Below are positions 1-27,221 of a stretch of 27,221 nt of DNA, in pieces (positions within the stretch are counted from its first letter, which is position 1; every line of letters starts with the position of its first letter). A program made the position numbers and the translations under genes. Source of the DNA: a virus (taxonomy: Duplodnaviria; Caudoviricetes); IMG/VR virus record IMGVR_UViG_3300030095_005707, positions 1-27,221 of that record; one strand, given 5' to 3'. The notes under the pieces are model-generated. The model made no database searches and was not told the DNA's origin. It worked only from the letters and a program-made list of their open reading frames with translations.

Positions 1-541
1 AGGCCTGACCTTCGACTTGTTTATATTCAAGCCAGTCGTCGAGTGCCTCCGGAAACCCTTCCAGGTTTTGGAGATCAATCGGTATCTGGACGGACTCGAG
101 AAGTTCAATTGGTGTCGGCTTTTTCTTGGACATATCCCCTTCTGTTAATATCTGTTTATTATATATAGGTGTATGTGTGCCGTCGGTGGCACATAACGTG
201 TGCCGTCCATGGTACTGTTCCATACATGGCACATTTCCCTTAAATTGGGCGTCGTAGTTGGGCGTCTTTTGGGTGATCTGGTAGGACGTCTGGCGACCCT
301 CCTGGGTCCTTTTCAAAAATCCTTTTTGTTCCAGACGTTTGGCGACCTTGTAGACCTTCCGGATGTCGTTCCAGTAGAGAACAGAGGCGATCTGCTCGGC
401 CTTGACGAGGATTGGGTCGCCGGGCTGGATCTTCATCGCCCCTTGATAGGCCTTCAGGACGGTCATTAGCCTCAACCCTGAGATATCAATATCCGTGTCG
501 AGGAACCACTTATCGACGTCCATGTCGATCTTGGTGAACAT
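1..541 (-). CDS. Phage replication initiator (winged-HTH, lambda O-like), 3' end outside window
   Basis: Not in the ORF track. ATG at 541 with GGAG RBS, open to the window edge: MFTKIDMDVDKWFLD...AEQIASVLYWNDIRKVYKVAKRLEQKGFLKR (wHTH-like)...FPEALDDWLEYKQ. Contains iterons. Confidence 0.8.
   Translation of the reverse strand, partial: MFTKIDMDVDKWFLDTDIDISGLRLMTVLKAYQGAMKIQPGDPILVKAEQIASVLYWNDIRKVYKVAKRLEQKGFLKRTQEGRQTSYQITQKTPNYDAQFKGNVPCMEQYHGRHTLCATDGTHTPIYNKQILTEGDMSKKKPTPIELLESVQIPIDLQNLEGFPEALDDWLEYKQVEGQA
141..233. repeat. Putative replication origin: three 18-bp palindromic iterons plus AT-rich tract
   Basis: TGTGCC-gtcggt-GGCACA (176-193), TGTGCC-gtccat-GGTACT (199-216), TGTTCC-atacat-GGCACA (216-233), beside an AT-rich stretch at 141-170, in the middle of the initiator gene as in lambdoid ori. 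Confidence 0.75.
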
Positions 542-732
542 TATTTCACTCCTTTTTTTTACCTGACTGACGGCCACCTTCGGCCATCGGAATTTGATCG
601 ATTTTCTTGTCGGTTACCATCTCCAGGCCAGAGTAGAGCAGATAAGGGAAAGGCTCTGGGGAGGAGGGGCATAAGGTATAAAATCCCGTCCTGCCAATCC
701 TGGCTGGGTTTGGACCATCAGCCGGTCGTTTT

Positions 733-876
733 TTATGCTTGAGGCCAGTCACGTTTTATTCTGATTTCTTCGATTTCTTCCTGGTCCAGGAATCGTTTGA
801 CCCGCCAGACCATGTAAAGGACGCCTAAAATGACGACGACCAGGTGAACATAAACAAGAATATTCAAGAAACTCAT
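733..876 (-). CDS. Small single-pass membrane protein (47 aa)
   Basis: Below the ORF-track cutoff. GGAGGT RBS; MSFLNILVYVHLVVVILGVLYMVWRVKRFLDQEEIEEIRIKRDWPQA. Confidence 0.7.
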   Translation of the reverse strand: MSFLNILVYVHLVVVILGVLYMVWRVKRFLDQEEIEEIRIKRDWPQA

Positions 877-896
877 AGCGACCTCCTGATAGCAAT

Positions 897-1631
897 TCAT
901 GCACTCTCGGTTTCTAGTTCCTCAGTGGCCTTCAGACCGTCTCTGTAGGCCTTGATATCCTTCTCCAGGATCGTGGTGTCCTTCCTGTCAAAAGTTTGCA
1001 GGGCGTCACTCCAGTACTGGGCCAGCCACTTATTCACCTCGTCCGAGGTCTTCAGCTTCTTCACCTGGTTCAAACAGTCCTGACGGTTATCCCAGGGCCC
1101 CCTCGACTCTTCTTTCGTCTCCGTCGATTCTGAGCGTCTTTCCCTGGCGTCCAGTTCCGGCGGGTCCACATCACTGGGGTCCAGCGGGTTGTCCTCTTTG
1201 GTGTAGATATCAAGACCTAATCCACACATAGCGATGGCCTTGACCAGGCATCTCTGAATGGTCTTATTTATGTCGAACATATCCGCCCCGTCTCCGTAAT
1301 AAGGGGCTGGCCGGATCGCCTTATTCCGGGAGTCCATGACGAACAGATCCGCAAACCGGACCGGCGTCTCTTCATCCTTCAGGTCCACACCGATCTCGAC
1401 CATGTATCCCTCCGGGCTGACCAGGTACGGTACGTTCGTGCCTTCCATCCATATAGGGCCGTCTGATTTAAATATAATTAGAGGCCAGTTCCGAAGGGTA
1501 TAGGTCGCTTTAGGATAATGCTTGAGAAGTTCATTCCAGGCATGGGTCCAGGGAAGATAATCCAGTTTTCCCTTCTTGGCGGTCAGGTGGCTGACGTCGA
1601 TGGATCTCAAAAATTCAAAACTACTTGGCAT
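897..1631 (-). CDS. Sak-type single-strand annealing protein (DUF1071, Rad52-like)
   Basis: F..L.SIDV...T.KKG.L.YL.W..AW..L.K.YP.A.Y N-terminus and DINKTIQRCLVKAIAM.GLGL.IY..ED motif; adjacent to an exonuclease. Confidence 0.88.
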   Translation of the reverse strand: MPSSFEFLRSIDVSHLTAKKGKLDYLPWTHAWNELLKHYPKATYTLRNWPLIIFKSDGPIWMEGTNVPYLVSPEGYMVEIGVDLKDEETPVRFADLFVMDSRNKAIRPAPYYGDGADMFDINKTIQRCLVKAIAMCGLGLDIYTKEDNPLDPSDVDPPELDARERRSESTETKEESRGPWDNRQDCLNQVKKLKTSDEVNKWLAQYWSDALQTFDRKDTTILEKDIKAYRDGLKATEELETESA

Positions 1632-1638
1632 AATTCAA

Positions 1639-1652
1639 TTCCGATTGAGGTT
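1639..1652 (-). promoter_or_regulatory. 14-nt motif AACCTCAATCGGAA upstream of the annealase (copy 2)
   Basis: Exact match to 2480-2493; ends 7 nt before the ATG. Confidence 0.55.
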
Positions 1653-2466
1653 AATTTAAAGCGTAGTCCGGCAACTCGACGGACTCGATGATGTTGCTGA
1701 ACCCGTAGACGGAGTCGGCGGGATCATAATCCTGGAGATCGACCAGGGCGTTCGTATATTGCGTCCGTCCGATATCCAGTTGTTTGGCCGGGATCGTATA
1801 GATTCCGACCTGATGAGGTGGGGTTTTGTGAACCATGACGTAGACGTAATCGACGTCGTCGCCATGATACTTCGCACAATCTATATAAAACGATGCCCGG
1901 CGGTGATATCCGCCATCGGCACACGCCCGGACAAACCCTTGACGGGTGGCATCCCTGGCGGTTTTCAGGTCCATCCAATACTTGCCGTTGACCCAGTCAG
2001 GCCGGGCCTTCAGTTTGTGGCCGTCCTTTTCCCAGAAATAGGAAACCTCTGGGGATCCGGACTTCATCATTAGCTGGACGAGGGGGTGAGCTAGGACTGA
2101 CTTCGCCATAGCCTGGGCGTGATCGAGTTGTTTCTGATCGATCATGATCAGGTTCTTCTCAAACGCCTTTTTTTTGAGGCCCTCAATTAAGGTTTTATTT
2201 TCCGGGTTTCTCTGATCCAGTTTAGGGATCAAAATATATTGCTTGCTGAAATGGTCCGGCTCGAGGACAAGGGTATGGGTCAGGGTCCCCAACTCCATGT
2301 CTGGAGTCGTTTTTTTGGGGTGATCTTTTCCATAGTAAAGTGCGTACACGCCACTTTTGTGGACCGTCTCACAATCCCCGGCCGAGGTGGCAGGGTCTGA
2401 GTGATATTCATTGGACGGCATCGTGGGCCGTACCATCTTTGATATTTGTGCTTCTTTTGTGATCAT
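1651..2466 (-). CDS. RecE/exonuclease VIII-like PD-(D/E)XK nuclease (DUF3799-like)
   Basis: EYH, M.LGT..H..VLEP, E.S.FW, K.RPD, DLKT and YH.RAS.Y motifs. Start placed at ATG 2466 (AAGG RBS) rather than 2508. Confidence 0.88.
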   Translation of the reverse strand: MITKEAQISKMVRPTMPSNEYHSDPATSAGDCETVHKSGVYALYYGKDHPKKTTPDMELGTLTHTLVLEPDHFSKQYILIPKLDQRNPENKTLIEGLKKKAFEKNLIMIDQKQLDHAQAMAKSVLAHPLVQLMMKSGSPEVSYFWEKDGHKLKARPDWVNGKYWMDLKTARDATRQGFVRACADGGYHRRASFYIDCAKYHGDDVDYVYVMVHKTPPHQVGIYTIPAKQLDIGRTQYTNALVDLQDYDPADSVYGFSNIIESVELPDYALN

Positions 2467-2479
2467 GTTACCTTTTAGT

Positions 2480-2529
2480 TTCCGATTGAGGTTGGGGACG
2501 GGGTACACTCCTTCTGGAGTCCCGCCCCC
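2480..2529 (-). promoter_or_regulatory. GC-rich hairpin followed by 14-nt motif (copy 1) upstream of the exonuclease
   Basis: Minus strand GGGGGCGGG-ACTCC-AGAA-GGAGT-(GTAC)-CCCGTCCCC, then AACCTCAATCGGAA. Confidence 0.55.
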
Positions 2530-2535
2530 GGTCTC

Positions 2536-2661
2536 TTAGGCCAGCTTCAGCATCCAGCCGAAACGGTTTTTCCAGTTCCCCAGAAAAATAGCCTGAGACT
2601 TTTGGTTTCGATTACGTCGGGACTCCTCGACGATTTGATTGATTCTAAAATGGGATTTCAT
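2536..2661 (-). CDS. Possible 41-aa basic peptide / leader ORF
   Basis: MKSHFRINQIVEESRRNRNQKSQAIFLGNWKNRFGWMLKLA fills the gap and overlaps the upstream gene's end; weak RBS. Confidence 0.35.
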   Translation of the reverse strand: MKSHFRINQIVEESRRNRNQKSQAIFLGNWKNRFGWMLKLA

Positions 2662-2887
2662 CCTTGACCGTGTTCTTTTCAGGTTTTGAAGATTGGGAAT
2701 CCATTTCCCGGGGCCTCATGATTTTAAAATCAGGATGCCTCTCCTCTTCTTTATAGTTGTTGACCAATGCGGTGTAATAGACACCTTCCTCCATGGGCTC
2801 ATCCAGTTTGATCGTGAGCTTGATGTCACCCGCCTGGGTCTCACCTTTCCAGATGGCCCCAATACTCGATTTTTTCTCTTCAGGCAT
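2645..2887 (-). CDS. DUF736-like small protein, probable ssDNA-binding protein
   Basis: IGAIW...G...L.I.LD.P and HPDF.I motifs; C-terminal DEIPF like bacterial SSB tails; lies in the recombination module. Confidence 0.7.
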   Translation of the reverse strand: MPEEKKSSIGAIWKGETQAGDIKLTIKLDEPMEEGVYYTALVNNYKEEERHPDFKIMRPREMDSQSSKPEKNTVKDEIPF

Positions 2888-3038
2888 TTTTCCTTTCTGC
2901 GATGATATCCATCACCGCTTGGTTGATTTTGCCGTTCAGTTTCGGGGAGAGAACCCGGCTGACGACGGTTGGATCGAGCCCCGCCCTCTTGGCGATCTCG
3001 ATCTGTGAAATGCGGTATTTCCGAATCAATTCAGTCAT
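2880..3038 (-). CDS. Cro/Cox-like HTH regulator (52 aa)
   Basis: ISQIEIAKRAGLDPTVVSRVL helix-turn-helix; first gene of the lytic operon, divergent from the repressor; ATG 3038 preferred. Confidence 0.8.
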   Translation of the reverse strand: MTELIRKYRISQIEIAKRAGLDPTVVSRVLSPKLNGKINQAVMDIIAERKNA

Positions 3039-3051
3039 TTGTGTTTTTTTG

Positions 3052-3137
3052 CTTGTCAAGTTTTCCAAACCTAATAACATAAATATTGTCAATTAATGTT
3101 GACAATATGATGCGTTGTTTGCTTAATGTCAACATTA
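3052..3137. promoter_or_regulatory. Lysis-lysogeny switch: overlapping antiparallel sigma70-like promoters and TTGWCAA operator-like boxes
   Basis: Plus TTGACA(3099-3104)-17-CTTAAT(3122-3127); minus TTGACA(3132-3127)-17-CATATT(3109-3104); inverted repeats ATATTGTCAA-N6-TTGACAATAT (3083-3108) and TAATGTTGACA/TGTCAACATTA; CTTGTCAAG at 3052-3060. Confidence 0.7.
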
Positions 3138-3501: not shown

Positions 3502-3776
3502 ATACATTTACTAATGAAATGGAATTGTTTTATGGCTTGATCAGGAAACAAGCCTGGATCGATTACCATCCACCACCATCGTTTAATTATGGAACGGAAA
3601 AAAGAAGACCCCGAGGTGTCGGCCCGCCTCCAAGAGGAGTGCCGTGCCCGGGGTTGGACCCAGAAAAACTTGCGGGAGGAACTGGATATCTCCAGGACCT
3701 TCGCCAGCCAGATATGGAATGGATCGGTCCCGTTAGGGCCGAAAACACTCCGCCGTCTGGCAGAACTTGGATTTGA
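3498..3776 (+). CDS. Strong-RBS ORF overlapping the repressor out of frame
   Basis: GAGGAGGT RBS; the first ~30 aa look protein-like, the remainder overlaps the repressor by 188 nt. Confidence 0.35.
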   Translation: MNTFTNEMELFYGLIRKQAWIDYHPPPSFNYGTEKRRPRGVGPPPRGVPCPGLDPEKLAGGTGYLQDLRQPDMEWIGPVRAENTPPSGRTWI

Positions 3777-3987
3777 TCTTAATTGGCTGATATCCGGTCA
3801 ACGGATGATGGGTGACTTCACCCAGAGTCAGATCAATGAGATTCAAGAGGAGTTGAAACAACTCCGATATTATAACAAACAACTGGAACGTCTTATTAAA
3901 GAAATAGGTAGGAATGACGACGACGATGTGCGAGAAACTAGACGAGGCCCAGAAGATTCTTCAGTTAATGCTGGAGAAAATAGATGA
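3589..3987 (+). CDS. XRE-family (cI-like) immunity repressor
   Basis: GWTQKNLREELDISRTFASQIWNG HTH, DLNWLISG motif, C-terminal coiled coil, no S24 peptidase domain; coupled to the integrase. Confidence 0.88.
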   Translation: MERKKEDPEVSARLQEECRARGWTQKNLREELDISRTFASQIWNGSVPLGPKTLRRLAELGFDLNWLISGQRMMGDFTQSQINEIQEELKQLRYYNKQLERLIKEIGRNDDDDVRETRRGPEDSSVNAGENR

Positions 3988-4153
3988 GATCGAGGAAACC
4001 CTTGTCGGTCAGGGACGGCCACTGGGTTTTCAGAGACTACACAACCAAACCGGCCAGGCTGATCCGCCTGTGCCGGACCGAGGAGGCCGACTGGAAGACG
4101 ACCTCAAAGGGAAAACGACGAAGAACGGATCCAGAAAGATCCCTTTTTCTTGA
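3914..4153 (+). CDS. Possible overlapping coiled-coil protein (third frame)
   Basis: AGGTAGGA RBS; heptad pattern in EKLDEAQKILQLMLEKIDEIEETL; overlaps both repressor and integrase. Confidence 0.3.
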   Translation: MTTTMCEKLDEAQKILQLMLEKIDEIEETLVGQGRPLGFQRLHNQTGQADPPVPDRGGRLEDDLKGKTTKNGSRKIPFS

Positions 4154-5093
4154 GAAACTAAAAGAGGGGAAAGTTCAGGAAATTCAGGCCCGGTCAAAGG
4201 TCGGAATCGAAGAGCTTTTCAAAGACTGGCTGGACCTCGCCCGGTCGGCGTTGTCTCCCAGGACGGTTACCTCTTATGAATCGACGGCCAGGTATTATTT
4301 AAAGGCCGTCAAGGATCATCCTGGGGATGAGTATGATGGACGTAAACAGAAGATTTTTGTGGACGCCCTGAAATCCCGGGGGTTGGCTGATCATTCAATC
4401 CAGGCCCATCTGAGACAGTTAAGTATCTGTTTTAAGCATGGGGAAACCGTCGGCCTGTTGGACAAGGCCCCGGCGGTCAAAAAGTTAGGCCTCGCAGATC
4501 GAGAGATCAAGGCGTTGTCTGACTCGGATCTGGATATGATCGGGCGACACTTAGAAAACCGGCTGAAGACAGGACCCGCCTTCAGGCAGAGGTTTTATCT
4601 TAACCACATCCGGGCCCACGTCTTGCTGACCTGGACCGGATTGAGAGCCGGTGAATTAGTACACCTCTTGATCAGAGATATTAACATAGAGGACCGAGTG
4701 ATTGCGATAGTACCGGACGGCCTGGATTGGGCCCCAAAAAACCGAAAGGTTGATCGGATTCCCATGTCACTCAAACTCCGTGAATTTCTGATAACTGATA
4801 TCAACGAACGTGAATCCCGGGAGAAGTATTTCCTGGACACTGGCAGAGGATCCCCGGCGTATCCTGAACGGGATCAACTGACCCAGGCATTTTCCAGGAT
4901 CCTCACCAGGGTCGGGATTAATGGGGTCAAACCGGTCCACGGTTATAGGGCCAGTCTTGCGACCAGGTTGATCAAGCGTGGAGTTGGTTTGGTGGAGGTA
5001 CAAAAAATATTGAGACATCGTCAGATCGACACGACTCGGCAATACGTCGATTCAATTCAACTCGATCTTCATCAGGCGGTCGATGCTCTGTAA
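3984..5093 (+). CDS. int: Tyrosine recombinase / phage integrase
   Basis: Catalytic set present: TGLRAGEL (R), PKN (K), HGYR (HxxR), LRH (H), TRQY (Y); SAM-like core-binding domain; tRNA fragment just downstream. Confidence 0.96.
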   Translation: MRSRKPLSVRDGHWVFRDYTTKPARLIRLCRTEEADWKTTSKGKRRRTDPERSLFLEKLKEGKVQEIQARSKVGIEELFKDWLDLARSALSPRTVTSYESTARYYLKAVKDHPGDEYDGRKQKIFVDALKSRGLADHSIQAHLRQLSICFKHGETVGLLDKAPAVKKLGLADREIKALSDSDLDMIGRHLENRLKTGPAFRQRFYLNHIRAHVLLTWTGLRAGELVHLLIRDINIEDRVIAIVPDGLDWAPKNRKVDRIPMSLKLREFLITDINERESREKYFLDTGRGSPAYPERDQLTQAFSRILTRVGINGVKPVHGYRASLATRLIKRGVGLVEVQKILRHRQIDTTRQYVDSIQLDLHQAVDAL

Positions 5094-5141
5094 TTCAATT
5101 ATGCTCAGACAAGGATCATTGGAAGGGGTATGTCGTTTAGA

Positions 5142-5205
5142 TGGTGCACCCGGGGCGATTCGAACGCCCGACCTTCTGAACCGCAATCAGATGCTCTATC
5201 CAGCT
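5142..5205 (-). other. attP core: 3' 64 nt of a tRNA-Arg(GCG) including CCA
   Basis: Minus strand AGCTGGATAGAGCA-TCTGA-TTGCGGT-TCAGA-AGGTC-GGGCG-TTCGAAT-CGCCC-CGGGTGC-ACCA; about 13 nt at the 5' end are missing; lies 48 bp after the integrase stop. Confidence 0.92.
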
Positions 5206-5210
5206 TACGT

Positions 5211-5351: not shown

Positions 5352-5558
5352 ATGTACAATTACCTCTCTGATGATGATTATGGTTGGTTTTATCGGAAGG
5401 GGACCAACCACGATATTGCTATCAGTCCTGCGACTCGTAAGCTGATAGAGCAAGGCCTCCAGGTAACAGTACGGGAAGTCCCTGATACGCAATCTTCCTC
5501 ACTTCCTCCGGAAGATTCTGGAACCCACGATCAGCAATCAACTGACGAAGCTTCATAA
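5352..5558 (+). CDS. Small convergent ORF (68 aa; alternative start 5319)
   Basis: GGAGGT RBS before ATG 5352; overlaps the 3' end of the 733-aa gene antisense by 137 nt. Confidence 0.5.
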   Translation: MYNYLSDDDYGWFYRKGTNHDIAISPATRKLIEQGLQVTVREVPDTQSSSLPPEDSGTHDQQSTDEAS

Positions 5559-7623
5559 TATCTTCCCGGATTGGGAGGTCATATTTTTTAGCAAACTCTC
5601 GATCAATTTTGTTTTGTTCGAGTAATGCACTTCTGAGCTTACCCTGGTCAAGCCTCTGGCCTATGTTTAATAGGCCTGGCTTTTCCAGTTCGCTGACTAG
5701 GTTTTTAGTCGCCGTTCCTGCCCCTTCTTCGGAAAACATTGTGGGTCTGTATCCACTTTCAAATCTTCCTGGAACATAATTAAAATTTCCTTCTTCCCCT
5801 TTCAGGACTTTTTTGACGATCTTCTGAATCTCAGTCCCGTCCAGGTCTCCATCAAATTTTCCAAACTGGATGGCATCTCCGACGTTGACGACGTCGAGGC
5901 CTTCATTGCTTAGATTCTGATTGATCTTGGAAAGGGTCGCCTCGTCAGCCTCAATCCTTCCACCGGTCTTTTCAAATCCCTTCATGGAAGAAGTCGCCGG
6001 TGTGAATTTGTGGTAACCTCCGGCCTCCTGGGCGTTCAGGATAGAACGAACCGTGGCGGTAAAGTCTAAAGCCTCCTTTGATGTTGGATCCATTTTAGGA
6101 CCGCCTCGTTTAGGTTCCCCTTTCTTAGTGAATCCCTCCAGTCTTGACGGAGTCAAACCCGTCAACGGCCTTGCTGTAAAACCTGGATTCTTTTCCAAGA
6201 GGCCAGCCGAGTTCATGTACTCCCCTTGGATCGGGATCACGTCGTCCTGGTACATCTGAAAACCTTCGTAATAAGGATCACGGTTTCCAATCGCCCCCTG
6301 CATCCTATTTGAATATTCCTTCCTGACACTTTCCGGAAGTTTGTTAAGCCCGGCTAGGTGACCGACACTTTCCCCGGTGATATATTCATAAGTTTCGTTG
6401 GCCTTTAGTCTAGGGATTGACTGATCAATCCCCCCCGAGGCCCTGGCGACCAGTTCATCAGCACTCGGCATTTTTGGGATAGATGGTCTTGAACCTTTTC
6501 CGCCATCCTTTTTTGAGGTCGAAGGTCTTGGATCGTTATCCCATTCCTTTTGCTTTTTTGTCGCATTGGTGACCCTCTCTCTAGCCTCGTCAACCAACTG
6601 GCGGAGTCTGACCGCCCCCCAGGTTGACGCTTGCATCCTTCGAGGTGTCATAGGTAGTGCAGTATCAAGAGCTTTTGTGGCCCTATCGGACGCTAGAAGG
6701 TTCTCTCCGGTAAGGAAACCATGTTCCTGGGGTGTAAACCCCCGGTCAAATTGAGACCCGCCCTGGCCGGAATAACCAAAAACACGCCCGTGCCAGATAT
6801 CGTTTGCGGTCTTGTAAAGCACGTCGTCGGAAATAGTCGGATCCTTTGCATCCGCATAGGGGCCTGTTTTTTCCCCGAGTTTAAGATCGTCGGGTCTAAA
6901 CTCGACCTGTCCGGTGGCCGGGTTGGTATCATAAATTTCATCAAGTTTGTCCGCCTGGGACTGAGTTCGGGGTCTGACCTTATCTCCTGAGATAACCCTT
7001 GCATTATGCTGGCGTATAAAATTTTCAACTTCCATCGGAGGCATCGCCTGGGGACTATAACTTGCCGTGCCCCTAGCAAATAGTTTCTGCTTGGTGGGAT
7101 CGCCAGGGGCTATTGTTTCAGCGACATCACGGGCCCGGTCGTACCAGTCATAATTAAACATCCCCTCTTCGACTTGCTTGTCCACTTCCTTTCTCATGGA
7201 GGAAAGGCCCTGGGGGGATGTTACGGATCGATAGTTTCCAGTTTCATCAAAAGGGGCCCCGATATATTTTCCGGTTTTGTCACGCTTTAAGTGATCGCCA
7301 CGTTGAGCAATTTTCATTGCCTCATCGTACTCATCAACCCCCTCAAATACTTTTGCGACGGACTTAGAAATGGGTCTTGATATTTTTTTCAATAGACCTT
7401 TTTTTGAAGGTCTGACTCCTCCAACTCCACTTCCACCAGCACCGGTCGGATTAATTTCCGCCCCGGCCGAAAGAGTCCCTGGGTTCAAGGGGTCCCCTAA
7501 CCAAGACATGAGCGTACCTGATAGCAAACCAGGCAAGTTCTTCACCGCATAGTCAGTGAAATCAAAAAGATTTCTATCGTATGCGTCAGCGTAATATTTT
7601 CTTTTAGATTGGGGATAACTCAT
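5422..7623 (-). CDS. Probable virion-packaged protein: shared leader plus HhH-GPD glycosylase-like domain
   Basis: Last late gene. Motifs WY(160)...SYSPQ...LGEKT(K252)...NDIWHGR(D275)...MQASTW; N-terminus homologous to the upstream gene. Confidence 0.65.
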   Translation of the reverse strand: MSYPQSKRKYYADAYDRNLFDFTDYAVKNLPGLLSGTLMSWLGDPLNPGTLSAGAEINPTGAGGSGVGGVRPSKKGLLKKISRPISKSVAKVFEGVDEYDEAMKIAQRGDHLKRDKTGKYIGAPFDETGNYRSVTSPQGLSSMRKEVDKQVEEGMFNYDWYDRARDVAETIAPGDPTKQKLFARGTASYSPQAMPPMEVENFIRQHNARVISGDKVRPRTQSQADKLDEIYDTNPATGQVEFRPDDLKLGEKTGPYADAKDPTISDDVLYKTANDIWHGRVFGYSGQGGSQFDRGFTPQEHGFLTGENLLASDRATKALDTALPMTPRRMQASTWGAVRLRQLVDEARERVTNATKKQKEWDNDPRPSTSKKDGGKGSRPSIPKMPSADELVARASGGIDQSIPRLKANETYEYITGESVGHLAGLNKLPESVRKEYSNRMQGAIGNRDPYYEGFQMYQDDVIPIQGEYMNSAGLLEKNPGFTARPLTGLTPSRLEGFTKKGEPKRGGPKMDPTSKEALDFTATVRSILNAQEAGGYHKFTPATSSMKGFEKTGGRIEADEATLSKINQNLSNEGLDVVNVGDAIQFGKFDGDLDGTEIQKIVKKVLKGEEGNFNYVPGRFESGYRPTMFSEEGAGTATKNLVSELEKPGLLNIGQRLDQGKLRSALLEQNKIDREFAKKYDLPIREDIMKLRQLIADRGFQNLPEEVRKIAYQGLPVLLPGGLALSAYESQD

Positions 7624-17589: not shown

Positions 17590-17879
17590 GTTGGCTTTGG
17601 ATACTTATCTTTTACTGCTTTAATCTTTGCTTTCCACCCATCTATATCATGGTAAATCTGGTCTAGCTGTTCAGGGATTGGGTCGTAAGCATCTGCCCTT
17701 GACCTAGCGTAAGCCTGTTTTTCGTACTCAGCTTCAAGCTCTTTTAGCTTTGCATTTACTTCTGATTCCGTTGGTGGTTTTTGTTCGTCACGAAACTTAT
17801 ATTCTGAAATTGGGCCATTAGTAGGTCCAGATATTTGCCCCCCAACTAACGCATGAACTGCGTTAAATTTTGTAATCAT
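17586..17879 (-). CDS. Putative tail fibre chaperone (cassette 3)
   Basis: PTE.E..AK...L...Y....Y.R.R...Y..I.EQLD.IYHD...WK..I.AVK.KYPK pattern, commonly found after fibre genes in aquatic phages. Confidence 0.72.
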   Translation of the reverse strand: MITKFNAVHALVGGQISGPTNGPISEYKFRDEQKPPTESEVNAKLKELEAEYEKQAYARSRADAYDPIPEQLDQIYHDIDGWKAKIKAVKDKYPKPT

Positions 17880-18550
17880 GTTATTACATCCCCTTGAATT
17901 TCATAATAATACAAAACTAATTTGTGTGAAGTATCCCAATTTACAGTAAAGCTAACACTACCATTATGACCAGAGTTAAATGCTAAACCTAAATAATGAG
18001 TGGCTTGAGTAGCTACAAATTGACCACCTAAATGAAAAGCGTTATACTGCCCTGCTTGTGTGTCAGTAGCTGAAACAAGCTCATTACCTATAATATAAGC
18101 AGGACCATTACTTCCTAGTGAAGATGTGTCTCCTGCTGAGACACTACTGGTATGATATTGCGTTCTTAAATATCCAAATCTATGCCTTGTGCTATTACTT
18201 GGGACTCTTTCTGCACCAACATAACCATTCCAAAAAAAGACAATACTGTTACCAGAAGTGCATGAAATTTGTTTGTAAGTTATAACAGCTTCATAACTGT
18301 CTGACGTTGTTGTATGACTACTTCCAGCCTCTTCGATTACTCTAAAATTAACAATGTGACCAGTAGGAAAAGTCACATCATTATGTAAAGTTACCGCACT
18401 TGAACTAAGTGTTGCTAGAGTCTTAGTTGCTGATCCGTCTTTAATGGTATTAGCATTAAGCGTATTATTCCCAGAACCATCGGTACTCAGAACTGTGTTC
18501 TGGGTTCCTGTTTTGTTTTTTATAGTATCTACTTCGATAATTGAAGGCAT
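17876..18550 (-). CDS. Tail fibre / receptor-binding protein (cassette 3)
   Basis: S.I.VDTI...G start, FP.G..V motif, S/T/G-rich beta domain; AT-rich DNA. Confidence 0.72.
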   Translation of the reverse strand: MPSIIEVDTIKNKTGTQNTVLSTDGSGNNTLNANTIKDGSATKTLATLSSSAVTLHNDVTFPTGHIVNFRVIEEAGSSHTTTSDSYEAVITYKQISCTSGNSIVFFWNGYVGAERVPSNSTRHRFGYLRTQYHTSSVSAGDTSSLGSNGPAYIIGNELVSATDTQAGQYNAFHLGGQFVATQATHYLGLAFNSGHNGSVSFTVNWDTSHKLVLYYYEIQGDVIT

Positions 18551-18555
18551 TGTTG

Positions 18556-18819
18556 TTACTCTGGTTTATTGGGCCAATTTAAATTATCTGGATCTGAAAA
18601 ATCCATATCTCTTAATGCTTGTCTGTATGCTTTCCATTCAGTAATTTTAGATTCAGACATACCACGATCCGTCACTATTTTATTGTCTGATTTTGCTAAC
18701 AATGAATTACGTTTAGCTCTTTCAATTGCTATTCTACGTTCTAATTTAGGTGGTGTTTCTCCACCAGTAGTCAGAATAACAGGATCACCCTGTCCAACTT
18801 TAAAAGAAAAAGTTCCCAT
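18556..18819 (-). CDS. Tail fibre assembly chaperone (cassette 2)
   Basis: R.KRN.LL..SD...W..YRQALRD...WP.KP motif. Confidence 0.82.
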   Translation of the reverse strand: MGTFSFKVGQGDPVILTTGGETPPKLERRIAIERAKRNSLLAKSDNKIVTDRGMSESKITEWKAYRQALRDMDFSDPDNLNWPNKPE

Positions 18820-18820
18820 A

Positions 18821-19636
18821 TTACGATGTACTAAGATTTAATTTTAATCCCAATAAGTGCATTGTCGTTTCTGCTTTTATAGTATCTCTGCTTTCATTAT
18901 AAATAACGAATCCTGTGACAGCATCATTAGCCTCATCAGCACTATAATAAGTATAACCTGCAATACGACAAGCTTCTGTCCCATAAGTAGCTGTGGGTTC
19001 GTGCCCATACAAAGAAAAACTATATCCACCTGAATAATATGAACCCCTATCACTTGTTACACTTGCATTTGTCCCATAGTCCCAAATATCTGCCCGTTGT
19101 GGCATCCAAAAATCAATGTAACCTCTATAGCCATCGTTAGCGTGATTCGCACTCATAGTATTCAGAATAATAGGAAACTCAGTTTGATCATGGATTGCGT
19201 ATTGTACGGCTATTTCAAAAACACCACCATCACCACCTTCTATTACACTCATACCTCTGTAATTAGACCCAGTACGCACATTTGTTGTACTCCAAGTAGG
19301 GGCAGATATAGTTTTTGATCCAGTGCTTACATCATACGATAAATAAATGTTATTTGAATTATCGTTTACACCAAAATACGGGATTATTAACCTATACATT
19401 GTATGGTATCGGTCAAATACATTTTGGAATTTAATATTACCATTTGTTATATCTGATGTTGATGAAAACGAACCTATATGATCCCACGGAGAATTAACAA
19501 TACCAGTTGCATTACTACCTAAATTAATAACAGGATTGTTATCTGTAAATGTTACTCTACCAGTAGTATCCGCAATGCTTATCCCAGCAGTTCCGTCTTT
19601 TGCTTTAACAGATGATACTTTTATTTCAGAACTCAT
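18821..19636 (-). CDS. Tail fibre / receptor-binding protein (cassette 2)
   Basis: MSSEIKV..V..KDGTAGISIAD.TG.VTF start, aromatic-rich C-terminal domain, followed by a chaperone. Confidence 0.72.
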   Translation of the reverse strand: MSSEIKVSSVKAKDGTAGISIADTTGRVTFTDNNPVINLGSNATGIVNSPWDHIGSFSSTSDITNGNIKFQNVFDRYHTMYRLIIPYFGVNDNSNNIYLSYDVSTGSKTISAPTWSTTNVRTGSNYRGMSVIEGGDGGVFEIAVQYAIHDQTEFPIILNTMSANHANDGYRGYIDFWMPQRADIWDYGTNASVTSDRGSYYSGGYSFSLYGHEPTATYGTEACRIAGYTYYSADEANDAVTGFVIYNESRDTIKAETTMHLLGLKLNLSTS

Positions 19637-19818
19637 GATGCTTCTTCTATTGTTAATTCACCTGCATCTACTTGTCGCATGATTTCTAAATAGTGTCTAT
19701 TATCGCCATTAATTGGAACCCAACAGTTTTCTCCATCTATAATACACTGCACTCCTTTATTGTCACTCCAACCATCTGGAGTCTGGTTTTTAGTATATTT
19801 TGCGTTTTCTATTTTCAT
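19633..19818 (-). CDS. Putative tail fibre chaperone (cassette 1)
   Basis: I..AKY...IDG....VP....NRHY.EI..QV..G.LTIEEA pattern. Confidence 0.7.
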   Translation of the reverse strand: MKIENAKYTKNQTPDGWSDNKGVQCIIDGENCWVPINGDNRHYLEIMRQVDAGELTIEEAS

Positions 19819-19820
19819 AA

Positions 19821-20945
19821 TTATGCCAATTCTGCATCCAAAGATAAGTATCCGTTTGCCTGAAATCCCATAAGTCCTGTATCTTCACTACTACTCCCTG
19901 TCATTTGAAAAGGAACTAAAGTAAAATTATTTTCACTATCTATAGTGTCATAAAAACTAACAGTTGTATAAGAAGTAGACCAACTTCCAGCAGGATGTGA
20001 CCATCTACCTAAATTAGCCTGATTAATAGTTGGTTGATGATGTCTCAGAGGTACTGGTAGATGAATTGGAAATACATGATTGCTGGTATTAAATCTATGG
20101 TATATCGCAAATTGCTGGTAAAGATTTCCAGTTATTTTCCAATAGTATCTCTGACACCTTCGTAACTCTTCTCCAAAACTTTTAAACTCAAAAGGAGTTG
20201 CTACACTGCCGAGTTCTAATTGAACTCCTGTTATATAAAAAGTATTATTTTGGGTTGCCATCAGGTTAACTTGATTAGAAGAAGAGTACTTATCACCTGA
20301 TCCCCAAGAATTAGCAGAAGCTGTATAAGTTGACCCCATTGCTATAGCTAACCTAATTTTTATAGACTTTGTATTAACTGCTTTAGGCCAAGTCCCTGTT
20401 TGATCACCCTGAAATGTGATTGTTTTACGTTCCCAAGTATCTGCAGAGTTTATGGTATATTCAAATGGATATGACCTATCACCAGCATTATTGGTTATTG
20501 AACCACCAAATGTCCCAGTTATACTAGAACGAACATAAAAAGATAGTGTGACTGTTTTTGCATTTGAATTACCAAACTCTAAATGGGCAGTATCATAACC
20601 CTCAAAATTATAAGTAAGCATATAATAGTCACCACTCGCTATACTAGAATCTATAGTATCTACATTAATTTTTGCTGAGTAACTAAACCCCACAGGGACT
20701 ACAGTAGATTGTTGCTGTACGCTAAATGCACCACCCCCTGCTTGATAAGTTTGTAAACGATCTATAGTGTATGCACCATTAGATGGGGATACAGCAGAAC
20801 CACTATTGCGTTGATCAATTATCATCCCCCCATTAATAATCATATTTCTATGACTTAACGGAGTTGCAGGAACTATATCATTTGAAAAAGTAATGCCACT
20901 ACCTGAAGTAGATTCAGCAATAGTATTTGTAAATAATCCTGTCAT
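19821..20945 (-). CDS. Tail fibre / receptor-binding protein with carbohydrate-binding-like domain (cassette 1)
   Basis: RN.IINGGM.IDQR, VTLSF.V.S, WE.KTIT and ITGVQLE.G.VATPFE..S.G.EL..CQRYY motifs. Confidence 0.82.
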   Translation of the reverse strand: MTGLFTNTIAESTSGSGITFSNDIVPATPLSHRNMIINGGMIIDQRNSGSAVSPSNGAYTIDRLQTYQAGGGAFSVQQQSTVVPVGFSYSAKINVDTIDSSIASGDYYMLTYNFEGYDTAHLEFGNSNAKTVTLSFYVRSSITGTFGGSITNNAGDRSYPFEYTINSADTWERKTITFQGDQTGTWPKAVNTKSIKIRLAIAMGSTYTASANSWGSGDKYSSSNQVNLMATQNNTFYITGVQLELGSVATPFEFKSFGEELRRCQRYYWKITGNLYQQFAIYHRFNTSNHVFPIHLPVPLRHHQPTINQANLGRWSHPAGSWSTSYTTVSFYDTIDSENNFTLVPFQMTGSSSEDTGLMGFQANGYLSLDAELA

Positions 20946-20965
20946 ACGATCACCAGTGTGCCTTT

Positions 20966-21556
20966 CTAAATTATAACAAGTGTGCCCTCGACCGTGATCG
21001 ATCCATTCGTACCCACGGTCACGGGTCCGGCCATGGTCGCCCCGTAGTTCGCCGGGATCGTCACCGCATGATCGATCTGGGCGTCATGCATCGCCACCCC
21101 GTCCTTTACGATAAACAACTTGTCGTCCACGGTTTTGATGTTCTGGTTCACATAATGTCCCCAAGAATCGGAGTCCCCGAGGATCGGTTTCCGGAGGGCG
21201 ACGTTCGACGTCGCTATAAACTCCGCCGAGGTTGTTGTCACGGCCCCGCCGTATCCCGAGTGCCCGGAACAATAGTAGTACAAGGTCGCCGGGGTCGAGG
21301 ACGTCACGCTTATTTCTGTGTAGGCCCCGGAGGACCCAGGCGTCCCATTTGTCGTTACGCCGGTCGTGTATTCAGATCCTGAGTTGTGGGTCCCGTCCGA
21401 GGTCGTGGAAAACCTCAGAGGGTGAGTCGCATTAGACGAATCAGACTGGGTGAACCGGTACGTTATGTCGTGGCCTAATTCCAAAGCCGGGACCGAATAC
21501 CCGTCGATCTCGTACTTCGAGCTAACCACTTTCACTTCAAAGACGTATGTTGCCAT
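20966..21556 (-). CDS. Tail fibre adaptor with N-terminal cupredoxin-like domain
   Basis: HPLRFSTT.DG.H...LYYYC..HSG.GG domain, internal L.KP..G...WG...N.N motif, C-terminal TIP.....MAGPVT...GTLVI motif. Confidence 0.7.
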   Translation of the reverse strand: MATYVFEVKVVSSKYEIDGYSVPALELGHDITYRFTQSDSSNATHPLRFSTTSDGTHNSGSEYTTGVTTNGTPGSSGAYTEISVTSSTPATLYYYCSGHSGYGGAVTTTSAEFIATSNVALRKPILGDSDSWGHYVNQNIKTVDDKLFIVKDGVAMHDAQIDHAVTIPANYGATMAGPVTVGTNGSITVEGTLVII

Positions 21557-23240: not shown

Positions 23241-23241
23241 G

Positions 23242-23871: not shown

Positions 23872-24216
23872 TTAAAGCGTTCCTTCCCAGACTCTAAAAG
23901 GTTTATTCTCAAAGTCATTGAGTTTTTTCCGGAGATATTTTTTCCATTCCGGGTGGCTCAGTTTGTTATGGCGGGCGTACCGTCGCCATTTGTGATACAG
24001 AACCTGGGGGATCTCTGCGATCTTCCGCCAGGAGTTTAGGTTTCCTCGATTATCGAAGGACGGCAATTGGGCCTCCTTCATGGATTTGACGGTCTCGATG
24101 ACCGGTTGAACGTCCTGTTTCCTACGGTAGATGATGGCCCGCCCGTTATCGGACGGGTCCGTCACTACTTCGGACAGGACTCCCCCGGTGTGGGAGAGTA
24201 TTGTCCTTTTAGCCAT
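23872..24216 (-). CDS. Conserved hypothetical protein after the capsid gene
   Basis: QDV.P.IE...WRKIAEIP...W...LND.EN..FR...G.L pattern. Confidence 0.72.
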   Translation of the reverse strand: MAKRTILSHTGGVLSEVVTDPSDNGRAIIYRRKQDVQPVIETVKSMKEAQLPSFDNRGNLNSWRKIAEIPQVLYHKWRRYARHNKLSHPEWKKYLRKKLNDFENKPFRVWEGTL

Positions 24217-25181
24217 TATGCGTCAGTACAGTCGGCGATGATGGCGTGTGTGGCCTCATTATCAACCTGAATTCCTGCCTCAACATAGACGGCCTCGGTG
24301 ACACCGTCTCCGATTGCCCCCATCGGTTTTCTCTCGAAGTTCCGGAGGTATGCGACCCGTGCATATTCAGGGTTGATCAGGAAGACGTCACGTTCCCGGT
24401 TAAAATTATCCGGCATCACCTCGAGGTCTCCGAAATCGGAGGCGACGACGGTGACGGATGCCCCAACCTGGTTCGCATCAACCATCCTTCTCATGTTGGT
24501 TGAGGACTCGTCGAAGGCCCCGATCTTGGCCTTATTGAAGGGCCCGCATAAGAGGATTGAAGGTTTCTGGGATGAACTCCCGAAAACTTGTTGCATGGCC
24601 GAATTGATGTGGGCCTTTGTCAACGCCCTCTTCGTGCCATCGGTGATGGTATCAGACCCGTCTCCAGTGGCGACGGCGGGGGATCCGGCGGAACCCAGAA
24701 CCTTGTTCGAGGTCAGCCAGGATGATAAACCGGCGGTCGTCCGGACCGTGGTCGCATTCCCGGTGTTCTTTGCCGTCTTGGCAAAAAAGACTGTCTCTAG
24801 ATCAGTCTTGAGTGCCCGTACCACCAACTGCATTTGATGAGCCATGGCATCGGCATAGCCCGCCTGGGTGGAGGCCATGGTTGTGCCGGTGATTGTCGCA
24901 TTCCTTGTAAGGATGAGACACTGATTTGCTCGACGGGTTGTGCCGGTCGATGCCTGTCTGGTAATGGCGTCGCCTTCAAGAGCCCCGGTTCCGGATGCAC
25001 TTGGAAGGGACTGGACCAACCAGTCAAAGTTCGGCTGGGTTACCTCACGGGTCCCAACGGCCTGGATTCCGGGCGTTGCTTCCGGGCTGATCTCGTAGAT
25101 GATATCAGCAAGATCCTCACGGATCTCGTTCTTGGCCCCGGTCGTCGCATAAGTATCATATGCGTTCGTAATTTTAGTCAT
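24216..25181 (-). CDS. Major capsid protein (DUF5309-like, HK97 fold)
   Basis: REDL.DIIY.ISP..TP, N.C.I, LK.D.E and SDFG.L.V.P..F motifs; follows the scaffold; GGAG RBS. Confidence 0.9.
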   Translation of the reverse strand: MTKITNAYDTYATTGAKNEIREDLADIIYEISPEATPGIQAVGTREVTQPNFDWLVQSLPSASGTGALEGDAITRQASTGTTRRANQCLILTRNATITGTTMASTQAGYADAMAHQMQLVVRALKTDLETVFFAKTAKNTGNATTVRTTAGLSSWLTSNKVLGSAGSPAVATGDGSDTITDGTKRALTKAHINSAMQQVFGSSSQKPSILLCGPFNKAKIGAFDESSTNMRRMVDANQVGASVTVVASDFGDLEVMPDNFNRERDVFLINPEYARVAYLRNFERKPMGAIGDGVTEAVYVEAGIQVDNEATHAIIADCTDA

Positions 25182-26110
25182 TATGCACTCCTTTTGAGTA
25201 TTTCAGAGATCGCCTTAGTGGCGTCGTCTGGTTTTCCTGTTTTTGCTAATTGCATCTTTGCCCGGCGGTACTGGGAAACCCGTCTCTGGGGTTGTTGTCC
25301 CCCAGGGCGAAGTGTCGCCACTCCCTCCGGACCTCGTTGCAGTTTTGATTTTCCTTTTTGCGTCATGGAGTCGAAGAGCAAGCTCTTCCTCATAAGGGCA
25401 ATCGCCCTGGCATCTCCAATGGAATTCATCTCCTCGGCTGAATAGCCCAGGCTGACCCCGTACTCTCGAATGGCATCTTTCTCTTTGGTTGCGACGGTTT
25501 CGTCACGCCATTCAGGTATCATATTTGTGAGTTTCTCGGATTGTTGTTGGAGGTACTCCTGACGTTGAAGATTCGCCTCTTGCATCCGTTCCCCTTCGAC
25601 TCTCTGGTATTCAGACTGGGCCTGGCCTCGTTGGACTAGGGCGGTCCTATAATCGTCGTTAGCCTTTAAATAGCCTATGGGATCGGTCTCGTACAGTTCC
25701 TTAGCCGGAGGCTCAGGTTCAGGCTGGGACAAATATTGGTGAAGTCCGGCCTGATACTGTTCTCGTTCTTCGGCGACTTTGGCCCGTTCGGCCTCCATCT
25801 CCTTCCGTTGCTCTGCGAGAAGCTGAGTCTTCTGAGTGAATGTTTTTTGCCTCATCCATCCGTCCGCCAGTTCATCGCCGGTGTAGTATTCTTCCTCGCC
25901 GGTGTCGGGGTTTAAGACCCGAAACTTTGGAGGTTCGATACTATCGGCCTCGATCTGGTCGTCGTCGTATTCGGCCTCGAATTCATTCTCTTCGAGGTGA
26001 GCTTCTTCCTCAGTCACCAGCGTGTCCTCCTCCTGGGGATTCGGGGCTAGGATCTGAGAGATTCTCGAGGTGGCCTCCTCGGGCCCTAACGGGCTTGTCG
26101 ATTCAGTCAT
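25181..26110 (-). CDS. Capsid scaffolding protein
   Basis: Acidic N-terminus, EL..G.MRQ..FT.KTQ.LAE.RK coiled coil, IPEW.D, and L.KTG..DDA C-terminus. Confidence 0.88.
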   Translation of the reverse strand: MTESTSPLGPEEATSRISQILAPNPQEEDTLVTEEEAHLEENEFEAEYDDDQIEADSIEPPKFRVLNPDTGEEEYYTGDELADGWMRQKTFTQKTQLLAEQRKEMEAERAKVAEEREQYQAGLHQYLSQPEPEPPAKELYETDPIGYLKANDDYRTALVQRGQAQSEYQRVEGERMQEANLQRQEYLQQQSEKLTNMIPEWRDETVATKEKDAIREYGVSLGYSAEEMNSIGDARAIALMRKSLLFDSMTQKGKSKLQRGPEGVATLRPGGQQPQRRVSQYRRAKMQLAKTGKPDDATKAISEILKRSA

Positions 26111-26373
26111 AATGGTTGTCTCCGTTTTAATTTATCCAGTGCGTCTCGGGCGATTTTTCCGTTCTGCATTATCTGATTGAGATGCTGACGAACGGCGTCC
26201 AAAGCGAACCAGGCTTGCCACAAAACTTCCCTATCGAGTTCCTCCCCGGGTCTGGATTGTCTCCAGGCCTCCAGGTAAGTTGACTCCAGGGACTCAAAAC
26301 TCTCTTTTATCAGTGGGTCTTCGAGGAGTTCTTGGGCCCGTTGGGACCGTTGAATTTGCTCTTCGTTGGTCAC
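26107..26373 (-). CDS. Conserved small head-module protein
   Basis: A..LL.DP...E.F..L...Y...W......RE..W motif; start placed at GTG 26373 (GAGG RBS) rather than TTG 26409. Confidence 0.72.
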   Translation of the reverse strand: MTNEEQIQRSQRAQELLEDPLIKESFESLESTYLEAWRQSRPGEELDREVLWQAWFALDAVRQHLNQIMQNGKIARDALDKLKRRQPL

Positions 26374-26399
26374 TGTAAACCTCTGAAAATACTTATTAA

Positions 26400-26551
26400 A
26401 AATTGACAATTTTTCCTAATCGCTGAGAATCGATTTTTTATAGATCCCCTGGGGGATAGGACGTATGATTTGAATCTTGACAAGTTAACTCTGTAAGTAT
26501 TTCATTTTATTGACAAAAAAATACGTCAAAATTGGTCAATTTTCGACAATT
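26400..26551. promoter_or_regulatory. AT-rich intergenic control region with TTGWCAA boxes
   Basis: ATTGACAAT 26402-26410, CTTGACAAG 26476-26484, TTGAC-N10-GTCAA 26510-26529, ATCCCC-TG-GGGGAT dyad, IHF-like TAAGTATTTCATT. Confidence 0.55.
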
Positions 26552-27221
26552 TCAGACAGACGTTCTTGGCGTATTCATCGAGTCCTGGATCGCTTTTTCA
26601 TCGATCTCGGTCTTAAATTTTTCTTCCAGTTCTCTCGCTTTCAGTTTTAGATCGGCCTCCATTTCGTCCCGTTTTCGGTCGTCCTCCATCAGCATCGTCT
26701 GACGTCTTAGATCAAGCTCGGCCTGTTTCATGGCGACGTCCGCCTGGATCTGCATGACCTGGGCTTCTTGGAAAACTTCCTCCGGGGTCTTCTTCGGCGG
26801 AGGCGGTGGAGGTGGCTGGAAATTTTTCGGGTCGTTGAAGAACTGACTTGAATCCTGATACCCGGCAATCTCGGCCGACTTGACCAGGGCGTTGTACAAC
26901 TTATTCATATCGGTGATCGGGTTGTTCGGCCCGAGCCTCTCGATAAACTGTTCCTGCTTGGCAATAATCGCCGAGAGGTAGGCCATCCGTTCGGCGTCGT
27001 TAGACGAGGAAAGAGGGGCCGTCACTCGGACGTCCATGTCGGATGTCCAGGACCGGGGGTCAATCGGGACCCAGTTGTTTCTCAGGCGGATCACTCTCGC
27101 CTTCTCCTGGTGTTTTCTTAATAAGTCAAAGATCCCTTTGAATACCCTGTTCAGGCCTCTCTCGCTAAACGTCCGGGTGATCATCTCGATCCGGGCCATG
27201 GAGGCCCTGGACATGAGGTCG
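26552..27221 (-). CDS. Portal protein, C-terminal part (5' end outside window)
   Basis: RIE.I.R.F.E.G...F..I..L...HQ......RLRN.WV.IDPR.W...MDV motif, poly-Pro linker and long C-terminal helix; frame open to the window edge. Confidence 0.9.
   Translation of the reverse strand, partial: DLMSRASMARIEMITRTFSERGLNRVFKGIFDLLRKHQEKARVIRLRNNWVPIDPRSWTSDMDVRVTAPLSSSNDAERMAYLSAIIAKQEQFIERLGPNNPITDMNKLYNALVKSAEIAGYQDSSQFFNDPKNFQPPPPPPPKKTPEEVFQEAQVMQIQADVAMKQAELDLRRQTMLMEDDRKRDEMEADLKLKARELEEKFKTEIDEKAIQDSMNTPRTSV

What the first reader, a model, noticed from the sequence alone, without database searches (positions are those of the whole stretch)
1..27221. GCNGC, GCGC and CGCG appear absent, and the proteome contains no Ala-Ala
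Seen: a manual scan found no GCNGC, GCGC or CGCG in 27 kb of roughly 50-55% GC DNA, where on the order of 100 of each would be expected. GGCC, CCGG, GATC and GGNCC are abundant. Ala-Ala always encodes GCNGC, and none of the credible proteins (about 8,000 residues; very roughly 40 expected) contains AA, not even the Ala-rich capsid. Motifs I recall as AA in homologues read AS here (exonuclease YHRRASFY; 733-aa protein ASYSPQ and QASTW). Known: these are Fnu4HI-, HhaI- and FnuDII/BstUI-type 5mC specificities. Inference: selection against host restriction or methylation has been strong enough to alter protein sequence, and it fingerprints the host methylome.
Basis: partly seen in the sequence, partly recalled or inferred. 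Interest (0 to 1): 0.82.

Follow-up and report, generated by a model that had tools for sequence, protein, structure and literature searches.

The report
SAR324 phage purged of restriction words
This temperate marine phage, which likely infects SAR324 bacteria, has no copy of four short DNA words (GCNGC, GCGC, CGCG, GCTCC), so none of its proteins has two alanines in a row; the likely cause is selection to escape host DNA-cutting enzymes, which were not found in the closest host genomes.

Summary
Confirmed and extended. The window is 27 kb of a temperate SU10-type podophage. GCNGC, GCGC, CGCG and GCTCC/GGAGC are absent (each about 40-85 expected in coding DNA), as are eight hexamer palindromes. 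Ala-Ala is 0 against about 44 expected, and relatives share the pattern. Ala-Ala conserved in homologues reads AT or AS here (capsid 37 of 62, 733-aa protein 104 of 141). The attP matches SAR324 tRNA-Arg at 63 of 65 nt. Both mismatches destroy an avoided word, and a sister phage keeps the host allele. SNPs in relatives create forbidden words 3 times against 33 expected. SAR324 chromosome samples show normal Ala-Ala and GCNGC, so the purge is phage-specific. Best explanation: avoidance of Type II-type restriction sites, a known strategy, unusually complete for a temperate phage. Not supported: 'fingerprints the host 5mC methylome'. The two best host genomes show none of five DNA methyltransferase families, and no GCNGC or GCGC enzyme was found. 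The scan noted Ala-Ala loss before on other virus DNA, and a second unrelated marine phage clade shows it here.

The parts
1..27221 (.). Partial genome of a temperate podophage (a relative's contig is 36,441 bp). Free of GCNGC, GCGC, CGCG, GCTCC/GGAGC and eight hexamer palindromes throughout, including the low-GC fibre module and non-coding DNA.
5141..5205 (-). attP core: 3' part of tRNA-Arg(GCG), 63 of 65 nt identical to the tRNA of SAR324 genomes G001, G063 and G024.
5145..5145 (+). att-core difference from the common host allele that removes GCGC. Sister phage L240 keeps GCGC. G053 and L247 also lack it, so this allele is not phage-exclusive.
5154..5154 (+). att-core difference that removes GCTCC/GGAGC and turns a G-U into a G-C pair in the T-stem. 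Seen in none of the 18 host-type loci; G004's more divergent tRNA also lacks GCTCC.
3984..5093 (+). Tyrosine integrase. Homologues at 27-35% identity in 6 of 45 genomes of the host family.
3589..3987 (+). CI-like HTH repressor
2880..3092 (-). Small HTH protein divergent from the repressor (Cro-like by position; inference)
1651..2508 (-). Exonuclease VIII/RecE-like. Motif reads RAS where 5 of 9 outgroup proteins have xAA.
5422..7623 (-). 733-aa protein of no known family. All three positions where at least 25% of homologues have AA read AS (residues 187, 311, 332).
24216..25181 (-). SU10-type major capsid protein, 42 Ala and no AA. Residues 310-311 read AT where 37 of 62 outgroup proteins have AA.
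17501..21000 (-). Low-GC (36.5%) tail-fibre module, also free of the words (about 3.8 of each expected at zero order).

Best explanation
This phage lineage, which likely infects SAR324, lacks about 20 restriction-type DNA words, likely because site-specific restriction enzymes scattered among host strains destroy phage genomes that carry them; since every Ala-Ala codon pair spells GCNGC, Ala-Ala is missing from its proteins. Shown: the words are absent or nearly so across the clade but not in host chromosome samples; conserved AA has become AS or AT; new sites are filtered out among relatives; the tRNA-derived att core has lost its two sites. Inferred: the agents are Type II-type restriction-modification systems in the variable part of the SAR324 pan-genome. 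A phage methylated in one strain would be unprotected in the next, so avoidance would pay even for a temperate phage. The enzymes for GCNGC, GCGC and GCTCC were not found.
For: Absence is far beyond chance under codon-aware nulls. It holds across the clade: 12 related, partly redundant loci give AA 1 against 201.6 and GCNGC 1 against 402. It is phage-specific: AA O/E is 0.99-1.25 in six SAR324 genome samples, and Markov O/E for GCNGC words, GCGC, CGCG and GCTCC is 0.91-1.03 in 329 kb of G001 and 239 kb of G063. The words are mostly 4-6 bp palindromes or degenerate palindromes, the class Rusinov et al. tie to orthodox Type II systems (PMC6286503, passages read). The non-palindromic GCTCC is absent in both orientations, which points to double-stranded DNA. 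Both att-core mismatches remove a word. Sister phage L240 (integrase 97.8% identical) keeps the host allele, and over 243 nt only one other base differs. Both alleles recur in independent runs. The clade's single AA and its stray GCGC sites lie mostly in variable tail-fibre genes. A congener, G004, carries several RM systems, including PstI/BsuBI-type (CTGCAG, clade O/E 0.28) and a partial Eco29kI-like match (CCGCGG, absent) (specificities recalled). No methyltransferase match in the window or in about 32 of the 36 kb of the longest relative. In a second phage clade, sub-lineages keep AA when only GCWGC or only GCSGC is missing.
Against: No cognate enzyme was found. G001 and G063 match none of five methyltransferase families nor Mrr, and G024 has no C5 or N4/N6 enzyme. 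RE_Bsp6I matched 0 of 45 and R-HINP1I 0 of 64, though the controls were also silent. The hosts show little self-avoidance, and hexamer depletion in phage and host is uncorrelated (Spearman 0.12, p 0.42). Islands next to host tRNA-Arg held integrases and primase-like genes but no RM genes. Temperate phages rarely eliminate sites completely (PMC6286503). The host rests on tRNA matches and composition (tetranucleotide r 0.62); no prophage junction was seen. Junction GpC (251) is still below simulations that ban the listed words (303-334 with phage codon usage), so the word list is probably incomplete.
Confidence: 0.72

Rival explanations
1. Modification-dependent restriction. Some host strains methylate these words on the phage, and other strains cut the methylated form with Type IIM/IV enzymes (BisI-like for methylated GCNGC, Mrr-like), so lacking the word avoids being marked.
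For: BisI-family enzymes cut methylated GCNGC (PMC11347163, abstract read). Mrr_cat is in 2 of 5 candidate hosts, G024 and G004. The strongest words are GC-centred, and GpC is lower than the listed words explain.
Against: It still needs methyltransferases that were not found in G001 or G063. The many unrelated hexamers (AGATCT, AACGTT, GGTACC) fit ordinary Type II sites better. BisI homologues were not searched for.
Confidence: 0.1
2. The host lineage uses a sequence-specific DNA defence whose self-mark is not made by a recognised methyltransferase family.
For: G001 and G063 (3.5 and 3.6 Mb) match none of five methyltransferase families while the control genomes ring, yet the phage is still purging sites.
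Against: These are fragmented assemblies of unknown completeness, in which variable islands are often lost (general knowledge). A congener has classical RM islands. The word list resembles classical Type II specificities.
Confidence: 0.08
3. Mutational erosion: methylated cytosines in these words deaminate and the words decay without selection.
For: The att change at GCGC and the capsid AA-to-AT change are the transitions that deamination would give.
Against: Host chromosomes are not depleted. Expected decay products are not enriched: GCAC 0.90-1.10, CACG 0.83-0.87, CGCA 0.96-0.97. AA-to-AS needs a transversion. New sites are under-represented among SNPs. The GCTCC change is not a C-to-T change.
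Confidence: 0.04
4. Selection acts on the protein or the mRNA (Ala-Ala disfavoured in translation, or an RNA-cutting toxin).
For: AA is the only dipeptide lost entirely.
Against: GCNGC is also absent in the other frames (38.5 expected with proteins fixed) and outside genes. Host proteins have normal AA. GCTCC is missing in both orientations. The second clade keeps AA through GCS-GC or GCW-GC codons, depending on which word is banned.
Confidence: 0.01
5. The pattern is a relic of a former or additional host rich in RM systems, and SAR324 is a recent or wrong assignment.
For: No matching enzymes in the best host genomes; no prophage junction; phage GC is 50-52% against 47% for G001 and G063.
Against: Two different tRNAs point to the same genome: Arg in the window, and Lys in relatives L011/L012 with 0-1 mismatch to G001. 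The att-core purge happened after the sequence was taken from this host lineage.
Confidence: 0.05

Closest known systems
Restriction-site avoidance in dsDNA phages (Rusinov et al. 2018, PMC6286503, passages read; review Callens et al. 2021, PMC8410138, passages read)
   Same: Near-total loss of 4-6 bp palindromes of orthodox Type II type, much stronger in the phage than in the host.
   Different: There, complete elimination is typical of non-temperate phages, and GCNGC tends to be over-represented (below expectation in only 22.5% of pairs). The search for 'amino acid' gave 0 hits in that paper's main text, and the review says only that non-synonymous contributions cannot be excluded. Here the phage is temperate by gene content, conserved residues are replaced, and the cognate enzymes are not identified.
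GANTC depletion in pelagiphages (Seong et al. 2022, PMC9516812, passages read)
   Same: A marine phage lineage depleted of a methylation-type word, clustering by clade.
   Different: One word tied to a known host methyltransferase, and partial depletion; SAR324 is not mentioned (0 hits).
Type II specificities Fnu4HI/Bsp6I (GCNGC), HhaI/HinP1I (GCGC), ThaI/BstUI (CGCG), LmnI (GCTCC), NaeI, PvuI, BglII, SalI, BalI, AclI, KpnI, BsiWI (names recalled, from no call)
   Same: The absent words coincide with these recognition sites.
   Different: Only the ThaI family was found in the host order (2 of 64 genomes, outside the host family). A matching word does not identify the enzyme or the type of methylation.
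SU10-type capsid podophages (Pfam SU10_MCP, SU10_portal; nearest annotated capsids 35-36% identical)
   Same: Head, portal, scaffold and adaptor families.
   Different: No close annotated relative; 61 of 62 outgroup capsids contain AA.

Membership tests
Restriction-site avoidance against Type II RM | Short palindromic words strongly under-represented against a composition- and codon-aware null | tested here: met
Restriction-site avoidance against Type II RM | Depletion stronger in the phage than in the host chromosome | tested here: met
   (samples of 33-329 kb per genome, not whole genomes)
Restriction-site avoidance against Type II RM | Acts on DNA whatever the reading frame and strand | tested here: met
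Restriction-site avoidance against Type II RM | Host taxon encodes RM systems with the avoided specificities | tested here: inconclusive
   None in G001/G063. RM islands in congener G004, specificities mostly unassigned. ThaI only in another family. Bsp6I and HinP1I searches had silent controls.
Restriction-site avoidance against Type II RM | Phage lacks its own protective methyltransferase or base modification | tested here: inconclusive
   No match in the window or in about 32 of 36 kb of the longest relative. Several ORFs are unassigned and base modification cannot be read from sequence.
Restriction-site avoidance against Type II RM | Adding a site lowers plating on a host carrying the enzyme | not testable with these tools
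   needs a cultured host and phage
   PF00145 absent from G001, G063 and G024 even at E 0.01; the assemblies may be incomplete
Temperate tRNA-integrating phage | Integrase, repressor pair and an attP copy of a host tRNA 3' end | tested here: met
Temperate tRNA-integrating phage | Observed integrated prophage (attL/attR junction) | tested here: inconclusive
   No junction in 19 metagenome loci or 4 runs. L247 ends at the tRNA end and cannot be read further.

The most novel reading that the evidence does not exclude
The SAR324 lineage that hosts this phage defends itself with a sequence-specific DNA system that uses no recognised methyltransferase family. The phage's list of about 20 purged words, still being enforced down to two bases of its att site, is the first readout of that system.
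Probability: 0.08. Interest if true: 0.85.

Novelty: new variant of a known kind. Interest (0 to 1): 0.5.

Why it matters
It shows that DNA-level defence can delete a dipeptide from a proteome and rewrite conserved capsid and enzyme motifs, even in a temperate phage, where complete avoidance is reported to be rare. The att core gives a polarised view of the purge: host allele, sister phage with the host allele, this phage with both sites gone. The case also makes a testable prediction about an abundant marine clade: SAR324 populations should hide GCNGC, GCGC, CGCG and GCTCC systems that their reference genomes lack. Phage word lists could then serve as probes of the unassembled defence pan-genome.

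Tried and rejected
The host was reached through the relatives' tRNA-Lys core. Of 39 genome hits to that core, only L026 (SAR324) and L038 (G004, same genus) matched the longer core with at most 1 mismatch. No bipartite Type I-like word stood out among gapped patterns beyond scattered low counts. NgoFVII-family hits (4 of 64) lie in ORFs over 1,000 aa with weak scores and were not counted as GCSGC enzymes. PDB, NCBIfam and plasmid searches did not assign specificities to the G004 and G053 nucleases. The idea that the second clade is HTVC010P-like was not supported: best annotated match 48%. The 'sites spared beside GG/CC' rule from two earlier scan notes does not apply: the core words are absent in every context, and words with GG/CC such as GCCGGC, TGGCCA and GGTACC are absent too, although surviving GCNNGC sites often have G and C flanks. 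An apparent host depletion of GCGC and CGCG (0.53-0.59 in G001 under codon nulls) shrank to 0.91-0.98 under a Markov null; I treat it as mild at most. An alignment-based locus search for more distant relatives could not be run, so the DNA of the AA-bearing sister P0016 was not examined. The last 4 kb of the 36-kb relative was not read. Literature searches found no paper reporting loss of Ala-Ala through site avoidance, and searches found none on a SAR324 methylome or this phage group (listings only). The library lacks most subscription papers and no supplements were opened; Rusinov's supplementary tables may list GCNGC-free phages.
Full report
Observation. The three words are absent from all 27,221 bp, while GGCC, CCGG, GATC and GGNCC occur 210-228 times each. 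With codon-aware nulls on 26 CDS the expectations are 85 for GCNGC (38.5 with the proteins held fixed), 44-46 for GCGC and 48-56 for CGCG. Ala-Ala is 0 against 43.1 in 39 ORFs and against 43.7 in the 35 credible ones. Of all dipeptides, only AA has no permitted codon pair under the banned words. GCTCC/GGAGC and eight hexamer palindromes are also at zero. Pooled, partly overlapping clade loci add CCTNAGG, GGYRCC, RCATGY, GWGCWC, YACGTR, SAGCTS, several GCNNGC words and others at O/E of 0.3 or less.

What the window is. PHROG and Pfam matches give a portal fragment, scaffold, SU10-type capsid, adaptor, tail fibres, endolysin, ejection proteins, tyrosine integrase, CI-like and small HTH regulators, exonuclease VIII and Sak. 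A relative's contig is 36,441 bp, so about 9 kb are missing here. No methyltransferase was matched in the window or in the roughly 32 kb of that relative I could read. The pattern is clade-wide: 12 related, partly redundant loci hold AA 1 against 201.6 and GCNGC 1 against 402. Most survivors lie in variable tail-fibre genes.

Host. Downstream of the integrase lies a 3' copy of tRNA-Arg(GCG). Relatives carry a tRNA-Lys core instead. Of 39 genome hits to part of that core, the SAR324 record L026 (G001) and L038 (G004) matched best. The window's core matches G001, G063 and G024 at 63 of 65 nt; 16 of 64 genomes of the order match at E 1e-15 or better. Integrase homologues occur in 6 of 45 genomes of the family. 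Tetranucleotide correlation with the window is highest for G001 (0.62) and G063 (0.59) among six SAR324 samples. No integrated copy was seen, so the host is likely but not proven.

The att core records the purge. The two mismatches against the host tRNA remove GCTCC and GCGC. Among 19 metagenome loci with this core, 17 host-type loci carry both words and one host-type locus carries GCTCC only. The remaining locus is a sister phage, L240, that still carries both; they are 2 of its only 3 such sites in 6.5 kb. Over 243 nt the window and L240 differ at three bases, two of them these. An independent run has the window's allele and another has the host allele in phage flanks. Against this reading: G053 also lacks the GCGC site, so that allele could have come from a host, and G004's more divergent tRNA lacks GCTCC. 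More broadly, of 719 isolated SNP alleles between the window and 15 related loci, 3 create a banned word against 33.2 expected; among the 608 synonymous ones, 1 against 33.1. The loci are not independent and the expectation is simple, but the gap is tenfold.

Protein level. In the capsid, 61 of 62 outgroup homologues contain AA (339 against 304.7 expected). The window and six clade proteins contain none, while a 59%-identical sister fragment has six. Position 310-311 is AA in 37 of 62 outgroup proteins and AT in the clade. In the 733-aa protein, 149 of 150 homologues contain AA, and the three positions where at least a quarter have AA (41 of 143, 46 of 144, 104 of 141) all read AS here. In the exonuclease, 5 of 9 outgroup proteins have AA where the window and five clade proteins have AS; one outgroup protein also has AS. 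Alanine content is kept (capsid 13%); only adjacency is lost.

Not a host-wide bias. AA O/E is 0.99-1.25 and GCNGC 0.90-1.36 in CDS samples of six SAR324 genomes. GCGC and CGCG look reduced in G001 under codon nulls (0.53-0.59) but not under a Markov null on larger samples (0.91-0.98). Deamination products are not enriched. A natural control came from the one outgroup capsid without AA (P0072). It belongs to an unrelated marine clade of about 34% GC, for which 80 of 598 confirmed loci were returned. These hold GCGC 24 and CGCG 2 in 784 kb. Of the 61 loci of 6 kb or more (19 shorter ones left out), 34 have at most 2 GCNGC, 15 keep only GCWGC, 7 keep only GCSGC and 5 are mixed. AA follows whichever word is allowed, and the states alternate on the capsid tree. 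That is what changing DNA specificities predict, and not what selection on the dipeptide predicts.

The gap: the enzymes. G001 and G063 gave no match to C5, N4/N6, N6 (type I/IIG), D12 or Eco57I methyltransferase families, or to Mrr. G024 has no C5 or N4/N6 enzyme. In the order, 13 of 64 genomes have C5 and 31 of 64 have N4/N6 enzymes, and several of the richest have very long contigs. That fits loss of islands from fragmented assemblies, but those genomes may simply be different lineages. The congener G004 has PstI/BsuBI-type, N4/N6 Type II, C5 plus Vsr plus Eco29kI-like, Type III-like, Type I-like and Mrr genes. ThaI-family nucleases occur in 2 of 64 genomes, outside the family, each next to an N4/N6-family methyltransferase. 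Bsp6I and HinP1I searches were blank with silent controls. So '5mC methylome fingerprint' is not supported, and the restriction explanation rests on the pattern.

Mechanism. Shown: absence of the words, phage specificity, ongoing filtering and residue replacement. Inferred (0.72): diverse Type II-type systems, patchily spread among SAR324 strains, kill phages carrying the words; methylation gained in one strain does not protect in the next, so a temperate phage is driven to the same extreme as lytic ones. Rivals: modification-dependent cutting (0.10), an unrecognised marking system (0.08), a relic of another host (0.05), mutational erosion (0.04), and protein or RNA selection (0.01).

Comparison and novelty. 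Site avoidance is well known. Rusinov et al. (PMC6286503, passages) report that complete elimination is rarer in temperate phages and that GCNGC is usually not avoided. Callens et al. (PMC8410138, passages) note only that non-synonymous change may contribute. Four searches found no paper on Ala-Ala loss, within a library that lacks most subscription journals. The scan's own unchecked notes report Ala-Ala loss on at least five other virus genomes; I did not test them and do not count them as support. This case adds a temperate lifestyle, an assigned host with negative controls, and a polarised two-base purge of the att site. Verdict: real, a new variant of a known kind, interest 0.5.

Noticed in passing
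L150-L229 (capsid P0072 clade): A very abundant low-GC marine podophage clade (about 810 stored stretches estimated), host unknown, lacks GCGC and CGCG. Its sub-lineages switch between banning GCNGC, only GCWGC or only GCSGC, with Ala-Ala following: a good system for timing specificity shifts.
   Followed up: partly
window:3984-5205 against L011, L012, L232, L237: Near relatives use two integrase and att modules: tRNA-Arg(GCG) in the window and L240, tRNA-Lys(TTT) in the others (integrases about 77% identical).
   Followed up: partly
L239, L249, L252, L256 downstream of tRNA-Arg: The same host tRNA-Arg is used by small elements with an integrase (and, in L249 and L252, a DUF5906 primase-like gene), possibly phage satellites competing for this att site.
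   Followed up: no
G009 and G010 (L258, L259, L265, L273): Two small (1.6-1.7 Mb) genomes of the SAR324 order each carry 18 N4/N6 methyltransferase matches and a ThaI-family system, an unusual load for their size.
   Followed up: no
L079 (G054:C93): A C5 DNA methyltransferase lies directly beside a Tet/JBP-family dioxygenase gene in a SAR324-family genome.
   Followed up: no
window:5422-8567: The 733-aa and 315-aa proteins share a similar N-terminal 54 residues; several relatives hold only one of the two in full, or a truncated form. The 733-aa protein has 444 homologues but no Pfam or PHROG family.
   Followed up: no
window:17501-21000: The low-GC fibre module (36.5% against about 52% elsewhere) is also free of the banned words, so it probably came from a donor under similar pressure or has already been purged.
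   Followed up: partly
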